Shown here piece by piece: positions 59-17,583 of a stretch of DNA of 17,583 bases (positions are counted from its first letter, which is position 1; each line of letters begins with the position of its first letter). The position numbers and the translations under genes were made by a program. The notes below the pieces were generated by a model, which saw only the letters and a list, made by a program, of their open reading frames with translations, had not been told where the DNA came from and did not search any database. The stretch is from a virus. Lineage: Duplodnaviria; Heunggongvirae; Uroviricota; Caudoviricetes. The stretch lies in the IMG/VR virus record IMGVR_UViG_2585427735_000005; one strand, written 5' to 3'.

Positions 59-1345
59 TTACCCAGCTTTCTTATGGGGCATACATGGGACACTTTCAGA
101 TAGTCTTTTGTTAAGGAGTTCTATCTGTTCGTGATTGTTGTCTTTCATCCATGCTCCGTAAACATTGAATACCATTTGTGCGTTTGTGTGGCCCATCTGG
201 CTTGCGATAAAACTAGGATTAGCTCCAGCGGCAAGTGACCAGCATGCATAAGTATGCCTGGATTGGTACGATTTTCTGTGTCTCAGACCTGCGCGTTTTA
301 AGATACTTGTCCATGACTCCCTGATGGAGTCAACCTTATAGTGCGGTCCGGAAAACTGCCGCTGTTTTATTACCTGAGGACTAAAAACAAAAGTGCATTT
401 ATGCACAGTACTTCTCCCATATTCCCTCTGCTTTACCTCTACAGAATGTTGCTTTCCAAGCATGGTCATTTCCGCCTGACTTTTAAGAGCATCAATAGCT
501 GGTTGAACCAGATGAATTGTCCTTCCGGTGCCAGCATCGGTTTTTGGTGGAGTGAATTCGCCAAGTTTTGTATAATTCCTACGGATGGTTATAGTCCTTG
601 CTTTAAGATCTATATCTTCCCATGCCAGCGATACCAGCTCCCCGTGACGAATACCCGTGTATACAGCGAGAATCCACAGGTTTTTTGTTTGTTGATGACG
701 GCAAGCCTCAATAAAACGAATAAATTCGTCACGGGTGAGAGGATCTGGTTTTACCTTGGACTTTTTTAAGGGTGCCAGACCGTTAAATGGGTTTCCTGAG
801 GTATAACCATTATCTGTTGCAAATTGAAACATTCCAGCTATGGTTGTCATATAGTAGTTTACTGTGACCACTGAGCGCCCTTTTATGGAAGAAATCTTTC
901 CATTAGAAAGCTTTTGGTAACCGGTCAACAAATCTCTCCTTGCGAAAAGTAAATCCTCTTTTGTTATGGATGAAACCAGTTTTTTCTCACCCAACATAGG
1001 CAACATGTTTTTAATTACTGACTGGTAACGATTAAGTGCATTCGCACAAATCTCAATTTTCTTAAGGTCCAACCATTTTTCCGAAAGTGCCTTAACGGTT
1101 ATCTCTCTTTTTCCCAGACCAAAGTGTTTCAGGTTAGGGGAATTAGGGAACTGCGCGGCGTAGTCGAAACTCCCCATTCTGATTGCAAAACAAACGGAAG
1201 TGCGAAGTTCACCAGCGATCTTCCGGTTTTTGGCTGTGTCAGGAACACCGAGGTTTTCTCTGACACGTTTGCCATTATAGTGAAACCATATACGGAGTGA
1301 TCCTCCATGGTTTTCAACGCCTGTCGGGTATGATGCGTTACTCAT
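59..1345 (-). CDS. int: Phage tyrosine integrase (site-specific recombinase)
   Basis: 428-aa ORF. The C-terminal region (...LRHRKSYQSRHTYACWSLAAG...HTNAQMVFNVYGAWM) has the R/H-x-x-R-H...Y arrangement typical of tyrosine recombinase catalytic domains. It sits at the element edge directly downstream of an excisionase-like gene on the same strand. Confidence 0.85.
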   Translation of the reverse strand: MSNASYPTGVENHGGSLRIWFHYNGKRVRENLGVPDTAKNRKIAGELRTSVCFAIRMGSFDYAAQFPNSPNLKHFGLGKREITVKALSEKWLDLKKIEICANALNRYQSVIKNMLPMLGEKKLVSSITKEDLLFARRDLLTGYQKLSNGKISSIKGRSVVTVNYYMTTIAGMFQFATDNGYTSGNPFNGLAPLKKSKVKPDPLTRDEFIRFIEACRHQQTKNLWILAVYTGIRHGELVSLAWEDIDLKARTITIRRNYTKLGEFTPPKTDAGTGRTIHLVQPAIDALKSQAEMTMLGKQHSVEVKQREYGRSTVHKCTFVFSPQVIKQRQFSGPHYKVDSIRESWTSILKRAGLRHRKSYQSRHTYACWSLAAGANPSFIASQMGHTNAQMVFNVYGAWMKDNNHEQIELLNKRLSESVPCMPHKKAG

Positions 1346-1378
1346 TAAACCTCCCAGACGTCCAGGAGCATTAACAGG

Positions 1379-1633
1379 TTAACCGGAACTTGCATTTTTG
1401 GCACCTGGTTGTTTCTGGTTTTCGATCCATCGCATAATTTCTTCGATGTTGTACAGGCATTCACTGTAGTGCCCCGGATCACCTTCTACAGCGTAATGGC
1501 GGTATTCTTTTCCCTGCATCCATGACTTTCTTCTTGCCCGCTCAATGGTGCCAGGCTTTAGCCCTGTTGATGCAATGAGGACTCTCTCCGTACACCATTT
1601 GCTGGGGGTTATCTGATAGATGATTGTCTGCAT
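1379..1633 (-). CDS. xis: Excisionase-like small DNA-binding protein
   Basis: 84-aa basic protein immediately upstream of int, co-oriented. The N-terminal segment (ITPSKWCTERVLIASTGLKPGTIERARRKSWMQGKEY) resembles lambdoid prophage excisionases as I recall them. Not verified by search. Confidence 0.55.
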   Translation of the reverse strand: MQTIIYQITPSKWCTERVLIASTGLKPGTIERARRKSWMQGKEYRHYAVEGDPGHYSECLYNIEEIMRWIENQKQPGAKNASSG

Positions 1634-1651
1634 GCCAACCTCATAAAATTT

Positions 1652-1786
1652 TCATCCACGGCAGTGGCACCACACTTCAAACATTCGCTTCACAACTTCA
1701 CGACAGTAGAAGCCGTCAACATCTCGCGTCAGGTCATAGCGATTGCCGTAACGCTGGTGGACCCATCGTTCAAATGCTTTATTCAT
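1652..1786 (-). CDS. Small hypothetical protein (44 aa, Cys/His-containing), below the ORF-track size cutoff
   Basis: ATG at 1786 preceded on the minus strand by AAAGGAAG with about 7-nt spacing. It reads MNKAFERWVHQRYGNRYDLTRDVDGFYCREVVKRMFEVWCHCRG and stops at 1652. It starts 4 nt after the stop of the upstream 92-aa ORF, filling an otherwise unexplained gap before xis. Confidence 0.3.
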   Translation of the reverse strand: MNKAFERWVHQRYGNRYDLTRDVDGFYCREVVKRMFEVWCHCRG

Positions 1787-1789
1787 TCT

Positions 1790-2068
1790 TTACTTCCTTT
1801 TTATGGCTCGTAATTTTTTCAGGTGCTTTTCCTGCTCAGTGTCCGCGAGAATTTTGCGGTACTCCTGGTGGTCAATATGTTCGAACAGGCAGTTTAACTC
1901 ACCAATGCGTACCCGCCCGGATCGTCCGTCCATCCGTCGAAAGAACACTGAGTGCTCAGTGATGCGAGTAATCACCACGGGGTATCCAGCTCTGTCCGTG
2001 TATATCTGACCGCGTTGAATCAAAGCGAACATGTGGTTATCCCCATCGACAAATCGAGAACACAACAA
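1790..2068 (-). CDS. Hypothetical early-left protein
   Basis: 92-aa ORF in the operon orientation. The annotated start at 2068 is TTG; an internal ATG at 2032 is preceded by GGGGA, so the true start is uncertain. No domain recognised. Confidence 0.45.
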   Translation of the reverse strand: MLCSRFVDGDNHMFALIQRGQIYTDRAGYPVVITRITEHSVFFRRMDGRSGRVRIGELNCLFEHIDHQEYRKILADTEQEKHLKKLRAIKRK

Positions 2069-2116
2069 ACGCTGCTGCGAATACCACCCCCAGAGTTACG
2101 ATTGCATCAGGCCAGC

Positions 2117-3061
2117 TCATTGATTCACCTCCTGCCTGTCGTCCGGCATTCGCTCACTACAGCTTATCCAACCATCCGGAGTTACCGGAACTTGTGGAAT
2201 GGCTGTCTGCTCTCGAACGTCATTAGGCGCTATAGGTTCTGCTGCCAACTGACTGGCATATTTGTTAATGGTAACGATAAGCTCTTGCTCAGCCTCATCC
2301 AGACAATCACCGATACCTCGCCTGTCACCGTCAAAATCATCGAAATCGGCACGAATCCTGGCAACCTTCAGGATTGCGGACAACACCTCACTAGGAATTG
2401 CCGGATAGTTGGTTGACGTTTCCGCGATTTCCCGAAAATTATTGGTTGACGAATTCTTGTTTTCCCGAAAGTTTCCGGACTGAAGCATGGCGGCGCGGCA
2501 GGCGTTCCATATTTCGGCAGCAATATCGCGCTCGCTATCGGTTAATTTGTACGTTGAAACATAGCCAGAGAGCATTTCTACGTTTTCCGGAGTTGCTTCT
2601 TCAGGCACTACCGGTGCTGGCTCACGTATTACAGGCTCGCCCATGCGTGATTCTCCCTGCGCCTCTTTCACCATGTGGTCATTGATTTGCTCCAGTCGCC
2701 GAACGTGCTCATCAGCTTCAAGCGCTCGCCGTTTCCAGATGGACAGGTCTTCACGAGCGCCCTGATATGCGTCACCGTATTCGCCGTTAAATACTGGCGC
2801 TGGCGGGGCGATGCGTCCAAGCAACTTATTTACCTCTTTCGCCATCGCGTCATATTTATCTAAATAGCGATTAGCTTCTAAGCAGACTCGGTGCATCTGA
2901 TCTGAGTTAACTCGTTTAACTGGATCTGCTTCCAATGATGCCAGTGCAATCCGTGCCAGTTCTTCCGCTTCTTCTGCTGGCAGTACAACGTTGCTACCCG
3001 GTCCGTATGTTTCGCGCCACTGCTTGATTGTCAGCAGTCGCCCTTTGGTAATAGTGATCAT
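2117..3061 (-). CDS. Hypothetical protein, 314 aa, acidic and Ala/Glu-rich
   Basis: Long ORF co-oriented with the early-left operon. Its start overlaps the stop of the upstream gene in an ATGA arrangement (3058-3061). The extreme C-terminus (PDGWISCSERMPDD) loosely resembles the start of a DUF551-type domain; weak recollection only. Confidence 0.55.
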   Translation of the reverse strand: MITITKGRLLTIKQWRETYGPGSNVVLPAEEAEELARIALASLEADPVKRVNSDQMHRVCLEANRYLDKYDAMAKEVNKLLGRIAPPAPVFNGEYGDAYQGAREDLSIWKRRALEADEHVRRLEQINDHMVKEAQGESRMGEPVIREPAPVVPEEATPENVEMLSGYVSTYKLTDSERDIAAEIWNACRAAMLQSGNFRENKNSSTNNFREIAETSTNYPAIPSEVLSAILKVARIRADFDDFDGDRRGIGDCLDEAEQELIVTINKYASQLAAEPIAPNDVREQTAIPQVPVTPDGWISCSERMPDDRQEVNQ

Positions 3062-3573: not shown

Positions 3574-4111
3574 ATAACTCTCCTTTGATGCGAATGTCAG
3601 CGACGCGTAATGCGTGTTCTAGGTCAATCAGGTAAAGCCAACTGCCATTTTCTTTAGGTATCATGACTTGTCGCTCATCTGCATTTATCGGGTGTCCATA
3701 TCGAAGGTCGTAGCGAGTCGGTAATTGAACTTCCCGCGCTTCCAGTTCAGCAATACGCTTGCACTCATCAGAGATAACTCCCTCGTAATACTCGCGCTGC
3801 TCGTTGAGTTTTGATTTTGCTGCTTCAAGCTCAACGCGCAGCTTCCCAACCGTAAGCGCAATATCCTCGTTCTCCTGGTCGCGGCGTTTGATGTATTGCT
3901 GGTTTCTTTCCCGTTCATCCAGTAGTGCCAGCACGGTTTCTGGTCCGGTCAGAAATTTGAAGGCATTGAGCGCATCAATATCCACACCGTAATCTTTAAG
4001 TTCCTGTTCACTTAACAAATCATCATCAACTGGCAACATTAACAGGCGTTCCATTGCTGGAATTGCACGTTCCGCCACCTCACGCAGTGCCTGGTAATTA
4101 ATTTCGCTCAC
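3524..4111 (-). CDS. Ea22/Ead-like early protein, paralog 1
   Basis: 195 aa with a GTG start at 4111 preceded by GGAGG at 6-nt spacing. The N-terminus MSEINYQALREVAERA matches the conserved N-terminal signature of Ead/Ea22-like lambdoid proteins as I recall it; the centre is coiled-coil-like. The ORF runs 50 nt into the next gene. Confidence 0.55.
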   Translation of the reverse strand: MSEINYQALREVAERAIPAMERLLMLPVDDDLLSEQELKDYGVDIDALNAFKFLTGPETVLALLDERERNQQYIKRRDQENEDIALTVGKLRVELEAAKSKLNEQREYYEGVISDECKRIAELEAREVQLPTRYDLRYGHPINADERQVMIPKENGSWLYLIDLEHALRVADIRIKGELYGVNTPRTLSDCVQVP

Positions 4112-14434: not shown

Positions 14435-15424
14435 TTGAGAGCACTGCTGACCCCTGAAATTGCCCCGCGTATGGGGATCGTCTTGTTCAGACCCGGTTCA
14501 GAGCTGATGCCTCTGTTTATGCAGGGGCGTGTCCTGCTGGAGCCTGAGCCGGAACGTTATTCATCTTTTGCCAGTGGTGCCGTTCCGGCAGCATCACAAC
14601 CGCTGGCGGATGATCCTGCCGTTCGGGCCGTGTTCCGCCATGAGGCGGTGATCCGTCGTGCTGGTGGCGTGGAATGCCTTGAGAGCTGGTTACTTCGTGA
14701 AAAGGGCTGTCAGTGGCCTCATTCCGACTGGCACAGCGAGAACATGACCACAATGCGGCACGCGCCAGGCGCAATCCGTCTGTGCTGGCACTGTGACAAT
14801 CTTCTCCGTGACCAGTTCACGGAACGGCTGGAATCAATGGCAACGGATAACTGTGCCCGCTGGGTGTTGTATGTTGTGCGTCGGGATCTCGGTTTTGATG
14901 ACAGTCACGTTGTGACAATGCCGGAACTGTGCTGGTGGCTGATTCGTAATGACCTGGCGGATGCCTTACCGGAAAGTGCAGCCCGTAAGGCACTGAGATT
15001 ACCGAAGCCTGTTGTGCCGTCTGTCACCCGGGAAAGTGACCTTGTGCCTTCGGTTCCTGCCACCAGCATCATCCAGGATAAGGCGAAAAAGGTGCTGGCG
15101 CTGAAAGTGGATCCGGAGTCGCCGGAGTCTTTTATGTTACGCCCAAAACGTCGCCGCTGGGTTAATGAAAAGTACACGCGCTGGGTTAAGACACAGCCGT
15201 GTGCATGTTGTGGAAAGCCTGCTGATGATCCCCACCACCTGATAGGCCACGGTCAGGGTGGTATGGGGACAAAAGCGCATGACCTTTTTGTGTTGCCGTT
15301 GTGCAGAAAACACCATGACAAACTGCATGCGGATACCGTGGCATTTGAAGAGAAGTATGGTTCCCAACTGGAGCTGATATTTCGTTTTATCGATCGCGCG
15401 CTGGCGATTGGTGTGCTGTCCTGA
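14435..15424 (+). CDS. DUF968-like protein (Cys/His-rich HNH-like C-terminus)
   Basis: The C-terminus ([49 protein letters not shown]) resembles the DUF968 family found in lambdoid nin-like regions (for example YdfU of the Qin prophage, as I recall). The start is TTG at 14435 and uncertain. Confidence 0.5.
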
Positions 15425-15441
15425 TTTTGTGGAGAAAGTTG

Positions 15442-15834
15442 ATGCGTGATATTCAGATGGTTCTCGAACGCTGGGGAGCATGGGCGGCAAATAATCATGA
15501 GAATGTTAGTTGGTCGCCAATTGCTGCGGGGTTTAAAGGCCTCATCCCCTCAAAAGTAAAATTTCGACCGCAATGTTGCGATGATGATGGTCTTATCATT
15601 AGTTCAGTTATGGCAGTTCTCAAGAAAAAGGAACCATATCAATACCAATTACTGGAAATGTATTATGTATATGGGATCACATTACGAGCGTTAGGGGCGA
15701 AAATGGGGATATCGCTTAATCAAGTTGTTATTAGATTGCAGAAAGCTGAAGGGTTTGTTGAAGGGTGTCTGGCAATGCTCGAGGTATCTTTAGAAATGGA
15801 TTGCTATATGAATCACGAAAATGATTCAAGATAA
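15442..15834 (+). CDS. Q-family late-gene antiterminator (phage 82 / QuuD-like)
   Basis: I prefer the ATG at 15442, 7 nt after GGAG, over the TTG at 15427. The N-terminus [20 protein letters not shown] matches the Q antiterminators of 82-type lambdoid phages as I recall them. It sits at the end of the early operon. Confidence 0.7.
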
Positions 15835-15900
15835 ATGAACAGTTACTAGTTATATTTTACAGTAATCTCCTGATGATACACGTTCAGCAGGAGGTTATTT

Positions 15901-16518
15901 ATGAATGAAAATGTAAGACACATATTGCTGGATGCAATTGAAAATAAGAAATCTTTAACGGTAATTTACTTAGGAGGTAGTCAGCCAGGAACATTGAGAG
16001 ATATATCTCCGATAAGCATATCAGAAGATAAACTTAGGGCAAGATGCCATAGTACTGATGCTGTAAAGTTTTTTAATATTGGGAAAATACAACTACCTAG
16101 TGACTCGTCCATGATAACTGTGCCATATGGAAGTTTAGAGCTTAAAGTTTATGAGACGATGCAGAGTGTGTATGAGGACTTTCATAGCCTGTATCCGGAA
16201 GGTCGATGGGGAGTTGAATTTAATGATCATGAATTTGCTCTATTTGATTTTTTCAAAAATGGAAAAAGAAAAAAAACAGCATTTATGGCAATTCAGTTTA
16301 TGGAAAGACATGAGGATGAAACAAGAACGGAGATAACAATTGATGTCAGTCTATCAGGTGTTGTGATTTCGGAGGGAGCCAGAACACCTAAAAGACGTCC
16401 GTGGGTTGTGACTGGTCCCGGGCGTGGAGAGCTAAGAACTTATTCAACGTTAGACAAAGCTGCTACAGAGTTTTTTAAGCGACTTTCATTGATGGTATCT
16501 ATGGCGATTGAAACATAA
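15901..16518 (+). CDS. AT-rich hypothetical protein (205 aa), candidate moron / cargo gene
   Basis: ATG at 15901 with AGGAGG 8 nt upstream. Two 60-nt samples I counted gave 17/60 and 23/60 G+C, far below the flanking phage genes. Contains a Lys/Arg-rich stretch (KNGKRKKTAF). A hairpin plus U-tract follows. No domain recognised. Confidence 0.6.
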   Translation: MNENVRHILLDAIENKKSLTVIYLGGSQPGTLRDISPISISEDKLRARCHSTDAVKFFNIGKIQLPSDSSMITVPYGSLELKVYETMQSVYEDFHSLYPEGRWGVEFNDHEFALFDFFKNGKRKKTAFMAIQFMERHEDETRTEITIDVSLSGVVISEGARTPKRRPWVVTGPGRGELRTYSTLDKAATEFFKRLSLMVSMAIET

Positions 16519-16607
16519 GGGATATAAAGATACCGAGGAAATGATTTGTGTTATAACAAAAACCATCTTAATCTGTTAAGAGTGGTCACTCCGTCATACA
16601 GCTTAAA

Positions 16608-16629
16608 CCTGCCGCCTGGCGGGTTTTTT
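16608..16629 (+). terminator. Putative intrinsic terminator after the AT-rich gene
   Basis: Stem CCUGCC (16608-16613) pairs with GGCGGG (16618-16623), with one G-U pair and loop GCCU, followed by UUUUUU (16624-16629). Confidence 0.5.
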
Positions 16630-16749
16630 ATGCCCAAAATCGCGTCAGTACAGTAAACACGCTGGTGGTTGCGAATACGGGTCTTTCAGCTTGCTGGCTT
16701 TTTCGACAAGAGTTATTGGTGTGTCACGTTAACCGGAAAAGGAAAAGAC

Positions 16750-16947
16750 ATGCTAAAACAGCAGGATATGACCGAAACCGCCAGAGTGGTGTTTAATGAA
16801 TTAAGCGTCACCGAACCGGCGACCGTCGGGGAGATTGCGCAGAATACTTACCTTTCACGTGAACGCTGCCAGTTAATACTGACTCAGCTTGTTATGGCGG
16901 GTCTGGCAGATTATCAGTTCGGTTGTTACAGACGCCTTCAGCCCTGA
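16750..16947 (+). CDS. Small hypothetical protein (65 aa) with HTH-like segment
   Basis: ATG at 16750, 6 nt after AAGGA. The segment TVGEIAQNTYLSRERCQLILTQLVMAGL looks like a helix-turn-helix. The ORF-track start at 16669 is TTG and reads through the upstream terminator region, so I prefer the internal ATG. Confidence 0.45.
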   Translation: MLKQQDMTETARVVFNELSVTEPATVGEIAQNTYLSRERCQLILTQLVMAGLADYQFGCYRRLQP

Positions 16948-16961
16948 AGGCTTTTTTATTT
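16934..16961 (+). terminator. Strong intrinsic terminator
   Basis: GCCTTCA (16934-16940) pairs with TGAAGGC (16945-16951), loop GCCC, followed by TTTTTTATTT (16952-16961). It overlaps the stop codon of the small ORF. Confidence 0.65.
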
Positions 16962-17097
16962 GTGGTAATGGGCGGCTGGTGGGTGTTAGCGGCACCTGCC
17001 AGCCATCTGCTCATGCGTTGGGGTCACAAGCAAACCTCAGGCCCATCTGCTTTGCGCAAAAGCAGAATGAGCCTATCAGAGACAGGCTTAATGATCC

Positions 17098-17583
17098 ATG
17101 CTTAACACTGTAAAAATATCCAGTTGTGAGTTAATCAACGCCGACTGCCTGGAATTTATCCGGTCGTTACCCGAAAATTCTGTTGACCTGATAGTCACGG
17201 ACCCGCCGTACTTTAAAGTGAAGCCCGAGGGCTGGGATAACCAGTGGAAGGGCGACGATGATTACCTGAAGTGGCTGGACCAGTGTCTGGCGCAGTTCTG
17301 GCGGGGGCTGAAACCTGCCGGAAGTCTTTACCTGTTCTGTGGTCATCGCCTGGCATCTGATATCGAAATCATGATGCGTGAACGCTTCAGTGTGCTGAAC
17401 CATATTATCTGGGCGAAGCCGTCCGGACGCTGGAACGGATGCAACAAGGAAAGCCTGCGGGCGTTTTCCCCCGCCACAGAGCGCATTCTGTTCGCGGAAC
17501 ATTATCAGGGGCCGTATCGTCCGAAAGATGCCGGGTATGCGGCGAAGGGCAGTGCACTGAAACAGCATGTGATGGCCCCGCTG
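17098..17583 (+). CDS. DNA methyltransferase, N6-adenine/N4-cytosine (beta-class), 5' partial (runs off the window)
   Basis: From the ATG at 17098 the frame is open to the window end (162 codons). The DPPY catalytic motif lies near the N-terminus (DLIVTDPPYFKV) and a downstream GSLYLFCG segment follows, as in beta-class amino-methyltransferases. Absent from the ORF track, presumably because there is no stop in the window. Confidence 0.7.
   Translation, partial: MLNTVKISSCELINADCLEFIRSLPENSVDLIVTDPPYFKVKPEGWDNQWKGDDDYLKWLDQCLAQFWRGLKPAGSLYLFCGHRLASDIEIMMRERFSVLNHIIWAKPSGRWNGCNKESLRAFSPATERILFAEHYQGPYRPKDAGYAAKGSALKQHVMAPL

What the first reader, a model, noticed from the sequence alone, without database searches (positions are those of the whole stretch)
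15835..16629. AT-rich 205-aa gene of unknown function between Q and the late region, a classic moron position
The Q-to-lysis junction is where lambdoid phages carry cargo such as Shiga toxin genes. Here a 205-aa ORF (15901..16518) has its own AGGAGG ribosome-binding site, is followed by a hairpin plus U6 terminator, and is far more AT-rich than the flanking phage genes (17/60 and 23/60 G+C in two stretches I counted). That composition suggests recent horizontal acquisition. I recognise no domain, so it is a candidate novel single-gene defence, abortive-infection, toxin or lysogenic-conversion function. If the late promoter lies in the 66 bp between Q and this gene, it would be transcribed in lysogens.
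Basis: partly seen in the sequence, partly recalled or inferred. Interest (0 to 1): 0.75.

Follow-up and report, generated by a model that had tools for sequence, protein, structure and literature searches.

The report
WYL-domain cargo gene beside phage Q
The AT-rich 205-aa gene is real and conserved, and it encodes an uncharacterised sensor-type (WYL-domain) protein that sits between the Q antiterminator gene and Q's late promoter in a small subset of E. coli prophages, some of them Shiga-toxin phages; its function is still unproven.

Summary
ORF 15901-16518 (205 aa) has an AGGAGG site, 37.7% G+C against 48.8% elsewhere, and a hairpin plus U-run downstream.

The interpretation needs correcting in four places:
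- **Late promoter.** It is not in the 66-bp gap. The block homologous to the Q-proximal promoter-leader-terminator of related prophages, laid out as annotated in phage 21, lies after the gene (about 16540-16629).
- **Terminator.** The hairpin-U6 belongs to that leader, not to the gene.
- **AT-rich block.** It starts inside Q. In 74 of 5,426 E. coli genomes, Q's C-terminal half and this gene always occur together, as two alleles (dS 0.8, dN/dS 0.22). This is an old module, not a recent insertion.

A conserved hairpin also hides the ribosome-binding site.

Full-length relatives (at least 148 clusters) lie in prophage lysogeny modules and defence islands, with no fixed partner gene. My best guess (about 0.4) is a non-enzymatic sensor of single-stranded nucleic acid that protects lysogens. 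Rival readings are a counter-defence decoy or a developmental regulator.

The parts
15442..15834 (+). Q antiterminator of the phage-21 (Q21) family. Its C-terminal half (about 15590-15834, 36.7% G+C) belongs to the same co-inherited AT-rich block as the 205-aa gene.
   Evidence: Pfam PF06530, E 5e-49. phmmer to Q21 structures 6p18/6jnx, E 1.4e-8. Composition. Segment 15590-15900 is found in exactly the 74 genomes that carry the gene.
15858..15863 (+). Candidate -10 hexamer TACAGT (TATTAT or TATAAT in allele 2) with no convincing -35. A start about 7 nt downstream would fall just past the anti-SD arm of the hairpin.
   Evidence: Alignment of the two alleles and their haplotypes. The consensus scan found no full sigma-70 site on this strand. 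This part is inferred and weak.
15861..15899 (+). Conserved stem-loop whose 3' arm contains the Shine-Dalgarno sequence, with a UUAUUUAU tail. It is either a translational gate or a terminator-like element between Q and the gene.
   Evidence: RNA fold -17.7 kcal/mol, z -5.25. The allele-2 equivalent gives -23.0 kcal/mol, z -6.4. The inverted repeat is reported. Every arm substitution among five haplotypes keeps pairing.
15889..15894 (+). Shine-Dalgarno AGGAGG, 6 nt upstream of the ATG and paired in the hairpin.
   Evidence: Sequence and fold.
15901..16518 (+). 205-aa protein (RefSeq WP_024236046). Residues 1-66 (15901-16098) form a WYL/Sm-like barrel, residues 67-84 a variable linker, and residues 85-205 (16153-16515) an alpha-beta(7)-alpha domain with no confident relative.
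16541..16566 (.). 26-bp imperfect palindrome ATGATTTGTGTTATAACAAAAACCAT. Its core TTGTGTTATAACAAAAA is identical in both alleles, and it overlaps the upstream part of the putative late promoter.
   Evidence: the repeat finder pair I2 and alignment A5. Function unknown.
16545..16604 (+). Putative late promoter pR' with Q-binding region and start of the leader. Hexamers could not be assigned at base level.
   Evidence: Homologous to the sequence that directly follows the Q stop codon in gene-less Q21-family prophages L003 and L004. The compact layout matches the annotated phage-21 cassette of -35, QBE, -10, TSS, SDPE and terminator within about 90 bp of Q.
16605..16629 (+).
   Evidence: Fold. 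Conserved behind Q genes in Stx2 phages, phiP27 and SfV; SfV annotates it as a putative rho-independent terminator after an unrelated 250-aa Q.
16750..16947 (+). 65-aa winged-helix (TrmB/MarR-like) protein, the first gene after the leader terminator. It is common to many lambdoid prophages with or without the 205-aa gene.
   Evidence: Weak Pfam TrmB/MarR hits and phrog_331. The same protein accession, WP_000917767, occurs in gene-less prophage L003.
16934..16958 (+). Second terminator-like hairpin plus T-run, overlapping the end of the winged-helix gene.
   Evidence: Terminator scan.
17098..17583 (+). 5' part of a DNA methyltransferase gene that runs off the window. In the source genome it is followed by tRNA-Ile/Arg/Arg, the stx slot (empty here) and the lysis genes.
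   Evidence: Pfam PF01555 and the annotated source region L001.

Best explanation
**Shown**
- The gene encodes a soluble two-domain protein: an N-terminal WYL (Sm-like) barrel followed by an alpha/beta domain with no confident relative.
- It has no DNA-binding HTH, no conserved acidic or histidine residue, and no membrane segment.
- It belongs to a widespread family of about 196-aa proteins.
- In E. coli it is embedded inside the late-switch module of certain lambdoid prophages. The order is Q (Q21 family), this gene, then pR', leader and terminator, then the late genes (stx2 in some).
- It is always inherited together with Q's C-terminal DNA-binding half.

**Inferred (about 0.4)**
- The WYL barrel binds single-stranded DNA, or another single-stranded nucleic acid, as it does in DriD, CapW, BrxR and PafBC.
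- The C-terminal domain carries a conserved Lys/Arg/Trp patch. It either completes that binding pocket or contacts a target.
- The protein acts stoichiometrically, by binding and blocking or by assembling, not by catalysis.
- Its role is to benefit the lysogen by interfering with superinfecting or competing phages. This would be a single-gene exclusion or defence function triggered by replication or damage intermediates.

**Expression (inferred)**
- The gene lies upstream of pR', so it is not a late gene.
- Read-through transcripts from the early operon carry a hairpin that hides the ribosome-binding site.
- A weak -10-only promoter just upstream of the anti-SD arm could give shorter, translatable transcripts in lysogens.
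For: **Fold and domain**
- The AF2 model has pLDDT 86.8.
- The family profile matches DriD in the PDB at E 8e-5.
- 45 of 129 family members hit Pfam WYL.

**Ligand site**
- DriD's ssDNA contacts Y168, S172 and R178 (PMC9186387) align to Y23, S27 and R33. These are invariant or nearly so in 129 sequences.
- K56-x-F58 mirrors DriD's R204-x-W206.

**Probably not an enzyme**
- The conserved C-domain residues are W103, K119, N120, G121, K125, R166, P167, W168, Y181 and F191.
- No D, E or H is conserved.

**Real gene**
- dN/dS is 0.225 overall: 0.13 for the N domain, 0.23 for the C domain and 1.25 for the linker.
- The representative search found 886 clusters at E<=1e-3 and 148 at E<=1e-30. The best 150 are almost all full-length matches.

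**Lysogen or conflict context of relatives**
- Several lie directly beside CI-like repressors or the integrase in temperate phages (L012/L013, L016/L017, L073, phage PY3).
- Others lie in defence islands, next to nSTAND3-Mrr plus AAA_13, or HD plus OLD-TOPRIM.
- Others lie beside IS elements or integrases.
- Rare fusions carry transmembrane helices.
- No partner gene is conserved.
- Only 2 distant hits appear among 50,697 phage genomes, so the family is carried mainly by prophages and cells, not by virulent phages.

**Position and expression**
- Searches place pR' and tR' downstream of the gene.
- Searches cover the hairpin and the -10-like hexamer.
Against: - No experiment bears on this protein, and I found no paper about it.
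- It matches no known defence model apart from weak WYL hits.
- It has no recognisable effector domain, and most single-gene defences have one.
- In E. coli it sits in the early rightward operon after Q. That position is normally silent in lysogens.
- The proposed own promoter has no -35 and was not picked up by the consensus scan.
- The context sample of distant relatives is small (about 15 loci) and was not tested statistically.
Confidence: 0.4

Rival explanations
1. Developmental regulator. The protein senses ssDNA, a DNA-damage or replication signal. It passes that signal to the phage switch, either by acting on the repressor (as an antirepressor or induction sensor) or by acting at the late promoter next to which it is encoded. 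In the second case it might bind the conserved palindrome at 16541-16566 through its C-terminal domain.
For: - All characterised WYL proteins of this type (DriD, PafBC, CapW, BrxR) are ssDNA-responsive transcription regulators (PMC9186387, PMC11662680).
- Relatives sit directly beside CI/Cro-type genes. In L012 and L016 they lie downstream of short repressors that show no peptidase-domain Pfam hit.
- In E. coli the gene is strictly linked to Q and to a promoter-proximal palindrome whose core is identical in both alleles, although the flanks differ by about 20%.
- The conserved basic and aromatic residues of the C-domain would suit DNA binding.
Against: - There is no HTH or other recognised DNA-binding domain.
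- Relatives also occur in defence islands that contain no phage switch genes.
- Gene-less prophage L003 also has a (different) small palindrome at the same place, so the palindrome may belong to Q and not to this protein.
- The linkage to Q is explained more simply. Any gene lying between Q's DNA-binding domain and its cognate binding site is hard to separate from them by recombination.
Confidence: 0.2
2. Counter-defence decoy. The protein is an HTH-less copy of the sensor part of host WYL repressors, made early in lytic growth. It soaks up short ssDNA fragments, or poisons the host repressors. As a result CapW- or BrxR-controlled systems (CBASS, BREX) are not derepressed during induction or infection.
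For: - The architecture is a WYL domain with ligand residues kept but without the DNA-binding domain.
- The gene sits in the delayed-early operon.
- CapW-controlled CBASS cuts lambda yield about 100-fold on prophage induction through ssDNA sensing (PMC11662680), so a phage would gain from blunting that signal.
Against: - The family is nearly absent from sequenced virulent phages.
- It is found in chromosomal defence islands and next to prophage repressors, which are positions typical of lysogen-expressed genes.
- Early read-through transcripts would carry the hairpin that hides the ribosome-binding site.
- The C-terminal domain does not superpose on the WCX dimerisation domain, so forming mixed dimers with host regulators is not obviously possible.
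Confidence: 0.15
3. Toxin or abortive-infection enzyme, such as a nuclease or RNase, in which the C-terminal domain is catalytic and the WYL domain switches it on.
For: - WYL domains are fused to nucleases and helicases in other proteins (stated in PMC9186387).
- A few family members are fused to membrane segments, as abortive-infection effectors often are.
Against: - No acidic or histidine residue is conserved in 129 sequences.
- There is no adjacent antitoxin-like partner gene.
- Most members are soluble proteins of about 196 aa.
Confidence: 0.05
4. Functionless hitch-hiker: a decaying gene kept only because it is trapped between Q and its promoter.
For: - It is linked without exception to Q's C-terminal half.
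- It is rare, occurring in 1.4% of complete E. coli genomes.
- A few copies are disrupted or cut off from Q by insertions.
Against: - dN/dS is 0.13-0.23 in both folded domains at dS 0.8.
- The upstream hairpin is conserved with pairing-compatible changes.
- The full-length family is conserved across several phyla.
Confidence: 0.03

Closest known systems
wHTH-WYL-WCX transcription regulators (DriD, PafBC, CapW, BrxR)
   Same: - Shared motif Y-x-G-G-S-x-P-G-x-x-R, containing DriD's ssDNA contacts Y168, S172 and R178.
- Associated with phage-host conflict loci.
   Different: - No N-terminal winged HTH.
- The C-terminal domain does not superpose on WCX. Matches cover only the barrel, and the longer Foldseek alignments have rmsd 13-14 A.
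- It does not sit next to an operon that it could repress.
- It is about 100 residues shorter.
Other HTH-less WYL proteins: WYL1, the Cas13d accessory protein (PDB 6oaw), and the WYL module of bacterial PIF1 helicase
   Different: WYL1 carries a ribbon-helix-helix domain and works with Cas13d, and PIF1 is a helicase. This protein has neither partner. Its C-terminal domain is unrelated to either.
Phage 21 Q - pR' - tR' late-switch cassette
   Same: - The Q here is a Q21-family protein.
- A compact promoter-leader-terminator block is present and conserved.
   Different: - In phage 21 and in gene-less relatives the -35 starts a few bases after the Q stop codon.
- Here a 618-bp gene plus spacers (about 700 bp) is interposed.
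- The Q recognition helix and the promoter-proximal sequence differ from those of the gene-less relatives.
Lambdoid morons and lysogenic-conversion cargo (stx downstream of pR', lambda bor/lom, rexAB)
   Same: An accessory gene of deviant G+C carried by a temperate phage. Relatives in other phages sit beside the repressor, as rexAB does.
   Different: - It is not in the late operon and not at the stx slot.
- It has no terminator of its own.
- A promoter of its own is unproven.
- It is co-inherited with part of an essential regulator gene and is not a free-standing cassette.
Non-enzymatic prophage exclusion proteins that target replication intermediates (P2 Tin, BstA)
   Same: This is a functional analogy only, drawn from my knowledge of the literature. 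These are single prophage genes that block other phages by binding DNA or ssDNA-binding machinery, not by catalysis.
   Different: There is no sequence or fold relationship, and the analogy is untested.

Membership tests
WYL domain superfamily (Pfam PF13280) | Sm-like five-stranded beta-barrel preceded by a helix | tested here: met
   [not shown]
WYL domain superfamily (Pfam PF13280) | Sequence match to the family profile above the curated threshold | tested here: inconclusive
   The query alone scores 16.5 bits against a cut-off of 21.8 (E 0.0087). 45 of 129 family members match at E<=0.01, the best at 4.8e-8. The family profile hits DriD at E 8e-5. Newer RefSeq records name the protein 'WYL domain-containing protein'.
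WYL domain superfamily (Pfam PF13280) | [quoted passage not shown] | tested here: met
   Y23 and R33 are invariant, S27 is 91% conserved and K56 98%. They align to DriD Y168, R178 and S172, which contact the ssDNA phosphates. R176 of DriD is not conserved here.
WYL domain superfamily (Pfam PF13280) | Binds single-stranded nucleic acid | not testable with these tools
   Needs purified protein and binding assays.
wHTH-WYL-WCX regulators (BrxR/CapW/DriD/PafBC) | N-terminal winged helix-turn-helix DNA-binding domain | tested here: not met
   The WYL helix starts at residue 3. No HTH family matched in Pfam, NCBIfam or PADLOC.
wHTH-WYL-WCX regulators (BrxR/CapW/DriD/PafBC) | C-terminal WCX dimerisation domain | tested here: inconclusive
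   [not shown]
wHTH-WYL-WCX regulators (BrxR/CapW/DriD/PafBC) | Encoded next to, and repressing or activating, a defence or damage-response operon | tested here: not met
   In E. coli the neighbours are always Q and the late leader, in 57 of 57 loci. Distant relatives have no constant neighbour.
Lambdoid moron (autonomous cargo cassette) | Base composition different from the surrounding phage genes | tested here: met
   37.7% G+C against 48.8%. The deviant block also covers Q's C-terminal half.
Lambdoid moron (autonomous cargo cassette) | Own promoter active in the lysogen | tested here: inconclusive
   Only a -10-like hexamer (TACAGT/TATTAT/TATAAT) conserved in position was found. The scan reported no full promoter. 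There are no transcript data.
Lambdoid moron (autonomous cargo cassette) | Own terminator | tested here: not met
   The hairpin-U6 is homologous to the leader terminator that follows Q in phages lacking the gene.
Late-operon cargo at the stx position (downstream of pR'/tR') | Lies downstream of the late promoter and its terminator | tested here: not met
   The promoter-leader-terminator homologue is at about 16540-16629, after the gene. stx2A starts 2.64 kb downstream of the gene's start in L002, L022, L078 and L080.
Known anti-phage defence systems (PADLOC-DB v2) | Match to a model of a described defence protein | tested here: not met
   Only weak hits to the two generic CRISPR-associated WYL models, E 1.5e-4 and 7.7e-4. 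The same holds for fused relatives.

The most novel reading that the evidence does not exclude
A previously unrecognised class of stand-alone WYL proteins: an ssDNA-sensing barrel joined to a new C-terminal domain and acting without any DNA-binding or enzymatic module. Temperate phages would use it as a one-protein switch. It could work as a new single-gene exclusion system or as a decoy that blinds host WYL-controlled immunity. Synthesis would be gated by transcript-specific unmasking of the ribosome-binding site, and in Stx2a phages the gene is placed inside the Q-pR' switch that controls toxin release.
Probability: 0.2. Interest if true: 0.8.

Novelty: new variant of a known kind. Interest (0 to 1): 0.5.

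Why it matters
- WYL domains are so far understood as the ssDNA-sensing part of transcription regulators that switch on DNA-damage responses and anti-phage systems. A large, uncharacterised family that keeps the sensor but swaps everything else for an unknown domain would widen what WYL signalling can do. That this family is carried mainly by prophages and defence islands adds to the point.
- In E. coli the gene sits inside the Q-pR' late switch of some Stx2a phages of LEE-negative STEC (O113:H21, O104:H21). Any effect on induction, late transcription or superinfection could bear on toxin production and phage spread.
- The arrangement also shows how a cargo gene can be locked in place. It lies between a regulator's DNA-binding domain and that regulator's binding site.
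- The masked ribosome-binding site suggests transcript-specific expression, which is easy to test.

Tried and rejected
**Searches that found nothing useful**
- Near-identity DNA search of 50,697 phage genomes: no match. tblastn found only two distant hits.
- Pfam, NCBIfam, PHROGs and PADLOC on the protein and on 129 relatives: only WYL and a PHROG of unknown function. No family covers the C-terminal domain.
- Family profile against all PDB sequences: only WYL proteins.
- The extra 170-aa extension found in some relatives: no PDB match.
- Rfam on 15400-17100: nothing.
- Literature searches for this gene, for phage WYL proteins and for the Q-stx region: no description of it.

**Ideas considered and dropped**
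- A conserved partner gene: all-against-all comparison of neighbours in 10 contexts found none.
- pR' in the 66-bp gap after Q: rejected by homology.
- Base-level assignment of -35, QBE, -10 and SDPE in 16545-16604. I tried several registers against the phage-21 annotation, and none was consistent across the three promoter variants, so I left it unassigned.

**Technical failures**
- The search for related loci with the 129-sequence alignment failed because it has no conserved stretch. The 4-sequence alignment recovered mostly the two E. coli alleles.
Full report
**1. The observation**

The window is 100% identical over the finding to a lambdoid prophage of E. coli UPEC 26-1. ORF 15901-16518 (+, ATG, 205 aa) is present. 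AGGAGG lies 6 nt upstream of the start.

The ORF has 37.7% G+C (GC3 28%), against 48.8% for the window outside the block. No 618-bp stretch elsewhere in the window falls below 39.8%. A hairpin with a U-run lies at 16605-16629.

The neighbours, in order, are:
- a DUF968/HNH protein;
- a Q antiterminator (PF06530, E 5e-49);
- the ORF;
- a 65-aa winged-helix protein;
- a DNA methyltransferase.

In the source genome these are followed by tRNA-Ile/Arg/Arg, an empty stx slot, nanS-p and the lysis genes. So the description is correct. Two details change its meaning: the low-G+C block starts inside Q at about 15590 (Q's C-terminal half is 36.7% G+C), and the hairpin-U6 is not specific to this gene (section 2).

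**2. Where the gene sits relative to the late promoter**

Most E. coli prophages share homology with the window only from about 16603-16620 onward. That stretch covers the terminator, the winged-helix gene and the methyltransferase.

Two prophages with a related Q but no 205-aa gene (L003, L004) have Q, then 215 bp, then the winged-helix gene. When aligned, the roughly 90 bp that directly follow their Q stop codon match window 16540-16629, which lies after the 205-aa gene. They do not match the 66 bp after the window's Q.

The Q is a phage-21-type protein (E 1.4e-8 to PDB 6p18/6jnx). The phage 21 genome record annotates the -35, the two-part Q-binding element, the -10, the start site, the sigma-dependent pause element and the terminator. 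All of these lie within about 90 bp of the Q stop codon.

The same terminator sequence follows an unrelated 250-aa Q in SfV, where it is annotated as a putative rho-independent terminator. It also follows Q in many Stx2 phages.

My conclusions:
- pR', its Q-binding region, the leader and tR' are at about 16545-16629.
- The gene lies between Q and Q's own promoter, at the end of the early rightward operon.

I could not assign the promoter hexamers at base level; this part rests on homology of position and sequence. The sequence alignment to phage 21 itself is poor; what matches phage 21 is the compact layout.

**3. Linkage and population picture**

| Segment searched | E. coli genomes with a match (of 5,426) | Breakdown |
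|---|---|---|
| Gene, 15901-16518 | 74 | 22 near-identical, 52 at about 78% nt identity |
| Q C-terminal half plus spacer, 15590-15900 | 74 | same 22 / 52 split |
| Combined, 15590-16602 | 74 | contiguous (at least 80% covered) in 72 |

- In 57 of 57 fetched loci the gene is next to Q and the late leader. The offsets are fixed (Q at -459 or -447; leader at +675 or +718) in all but three. In two of those, insertions have split the gene from Q or truncated it; the third lacks a leader hit.
- The upstream replication modules and the downstream cargo differ between carriers.
- stx2A starts 2.64 kb downstream of the gene's start in 4 of 13 allele-1 loci, including O113:H21 FWSEC0010 and O104:H21 94-3024.
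- Between the two alleles dS is 0.81. dN/dS is 0.225 overall: 0.13 for the N domain, 0.23 for the C domain and 1.25 for the linker.
- The two alleles share an identical Q recognition helix and an identical promoter-proximal core, TTGTGTTATAACAAAAA. Gene-less L003 differs in both.

The simplest reading (an inference) is that Q's DNA-binding half and its cognate site must stay together. Whatever lies between them is therefore carried along. This is an old module, not a recent insertion.

**4. The protein**

With a 129-sequence alignment, AlphaFold2 gives pLDDT 86.8.

*N-terminal domain (residues 3-64).*
- It is a helix plus a beta-barrel.
- The family profile hits DriD at E 8e-5 through the motif Y-x-G-G-S-x-P-G-x-x-R.
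- In DriD, Y168, S172 and R178 of that motif contact the ssDNA backbone (PMC9186387). The aligned Y23, S27 and R33 are invariant or nearly so here.
- K56-x-F58 resembles DriD's R204-x-W206.

*C-terminal domain (residues 85-205).*
- It is an alpha-beta(7)-alpha sandwich.
- Its conserved residues are basic or aromatic: W103, K119, N120, G121, K125, R166, P167, W168, Y181 and F191.
- No acidic or histidine residue is conserved. This argues for binding, not catalysis.

There is no HTH and no membrane segment.

**5. The family and its contexts**

An exhaustive profile search found 886 clusters at E<=1e-3 and 148 at E<=1e-30. The best 150 are almost all full-length proteins of 187-210 aa. None of them carries an informative name.

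| Context | Loci |
|---|---|
| Directly downstream of, or convergent with, CI-like repressors in prophages | L012/L013, L016/L017, L073 |
| Between integrase and a LexA-family repressor in a temperate phage | Pseudoalteromonas phage PY3 (L081) |
| At operon boundaries near the terminase genes | L082, L083 |
| Defence islands, beside nSTAND3-Mrr plus AAA_13, or HD plus OLD-TOPRIM | L014/L015, L072 |
| Beside IS elements or integrases | L070, L071 |

No neighbour is conserved across these contexts. Rare variants carry N- or C-terminal transmembrane helices, zinc ribbons, a second WYL barrel or a 170-aa extension.

**6. Expression**

A stem-loop at 15861-15899 pairs UCUCCU (15866-15871) with the AGGAGG.
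- It folds at -17.7 kcal/mol (z -5.25). The allele-2 version folds at -23.0 kcal/mol (z -6.4).
- Every substitution in the arms among five haplotypes keeps pairing: U.G to C-G, U-A to U.G, G-C to G.U or G-C, and A/G mismatch to A-U.
- The region from the conserved ATATTTTA to the start codon is about 79% identical between alleles by my count on alignment A6. About half of the synonymous sites in the gene differ (pS 0.495).

A -10-like hexamer (TACAGT; TATTAT or TATAAT in allele 2) sits 2 nt before the anti-SD. A start about 7 nt downstream would therefore give an mRNA without the masking arm.

I propose, as an untested idea, that short transcripts from the gene's own promoter are translatable while long early-operon transcripts are masked. 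The hairpin with its UUAUUUAU tail could alternatively be a terminator after Q, or an RNase III site.

**7. Function**

Nothing here proves a function. The weights I assign are:

| Reading | Probability |
|---|---|
| Lysogen-benefiting exclusion or defence protein: senses single-stranded nucleic acid through the WYL barrel and acts stoichiometrically | about 0.4 |
| ssDNA-responsive developmental regulator acting on the repressor or the late promoter | about 0.2 |
| Early-expressed decoy that blunts host WYL-controlled immunity | about 0.15 |
| Enzyme or toxin | about 0.05 |
| Functionless hitch-hiker | about 0.03 |

- the ligand site is retained;
- catalytic residues are absent;
- relatives cluster around lysogeny modules and defence islands;
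- the family is nearly absent from virulent phages.

**8. Comparison and novelty**

The protein is a member of the WYL superfamily by fold and by ligand-site residues. It fails the defining features of the wHTH-WYL-WCX regulators, having no HTH and no demonstrable WCX domain. It also fails two of the three features of an autonomous moron, and it matches no described defence model. I found no publication on it.

I classify it as a new variant of a known kind. It is an uncharacterised architecture built on a known sensor domain, in an unusual position inside the Q-pR' switch.

Noticed in passing
window 15861-15899: A conserved stem-loop buries the gene's Shine-Dalgarno sequence (-17.7 kcal/mol, z -5.25; allele 2 -23.0 kcal/mol, z -6.4). 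All arm substitutions between haplotypes are pairing-compatible. The UUAUUUAU tail makes it also look like a weak intrinsic terminator after Q.
   Followed up: partly
window 16541-16566: A 26-bp imperfect palindrome ATGATTTGTGTTATAACAAAAACCAT overlaps the upstream part of the putative late promoter. Its core is identical in both gene alleles. Gene-less prophage L003 has a different small palindrome (GCGGTCCGC) at the same place. It could be a Q-type-specific binding site or an operator for another protein.
   Followed up: partly
L003 about 3575-3590 (sequence AGTATGTCAGTATGTT), aligned to window 16562-16577: The gene-less Q21-family prophage has a 7/8 tandem 8-bp direct repeat just upstream of the invariant AAGAGTGG. 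This resembles the two-subsite Q-binding element annotated in phage 21 (ATTGAGCA AATGAGCA). The window's equivalent, CCATCTTAATCTGTTA, repeats only weakly.
   Followed up: partly
L002 8067, and also L022, L078, L080: In the Stx2a-phage copies of allele 1 the start codon is GTG instead of ATG (TTTGTGAATG). The rest of the leader is unchanged.
   Followed up: no
L042 (Q 1,225 bp upstream instead of 447), L068, NZ_CP026723 and NZ_CP144926: A few copies are disrupted or separated from Q by insertions. In L042 the insertion replaces the 5' (anti-SD) arm of the hairpin, leaving the ribosome-binding site unmasked.
   Followed up: no
window 15442-15834 compared with L005 6554-6925: Q is mosaic. Between the two alleles the first 50 codons have dS 1.49 and the rest 0.56. 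Megablast similarity to most other E. coli Q genes stops at about 15587, the point where G+C drops.
   Followed up: partly
window 16934-16958: A second terminator-like hairpin plus T-run overlaps the end of the 65-aa winged-helix gene. Late transcription would therefore have to pass two terminators before the methyltransferase gene and the tRNAs.
   Followed up: no
window 16576-16629: If pR' is constitutive, as in other lambdoid phages, a short leader RNA of about 40-50 nt ending at the hairpin-U6 would be made in lysogens. That would be analogous to the StxS small RNA described for Stx phages (PMC7547250, seen). There is no Rfam match.
   Followed up: no
L001 14707-14832; L079 7286-7878; L006 9392-9987: The slot after the three tRNAs, where stx2AB sits in L002, L078 and L080, holds only a gene remnant in the window's source strain. 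In other carriers it holds TerB-family and DUF3927 genes. This illustrates cargo turnover at the true stx position.
   Followed up: no
proteins P0085, P0138, P0089, P0196, P0177, P0066, P0149; L081 2006-3115: Rare family variants are fused to transmembrane helices, zinc ribbons, a second WYL barrel or a shared extension of about 170 aa with no known relative. The extended form occurs between the integrase and the repressor of Pseudoalteromonas phage PY3.
   Followed up: partly
L082 3040-6071: In one metagenomic phage contig, two different WYL-containing genes (649 aa and 356 aa, the latter with a C-terminal membrane anchor) sit side by side just upstream of the terminase gene.
   Followed up: no
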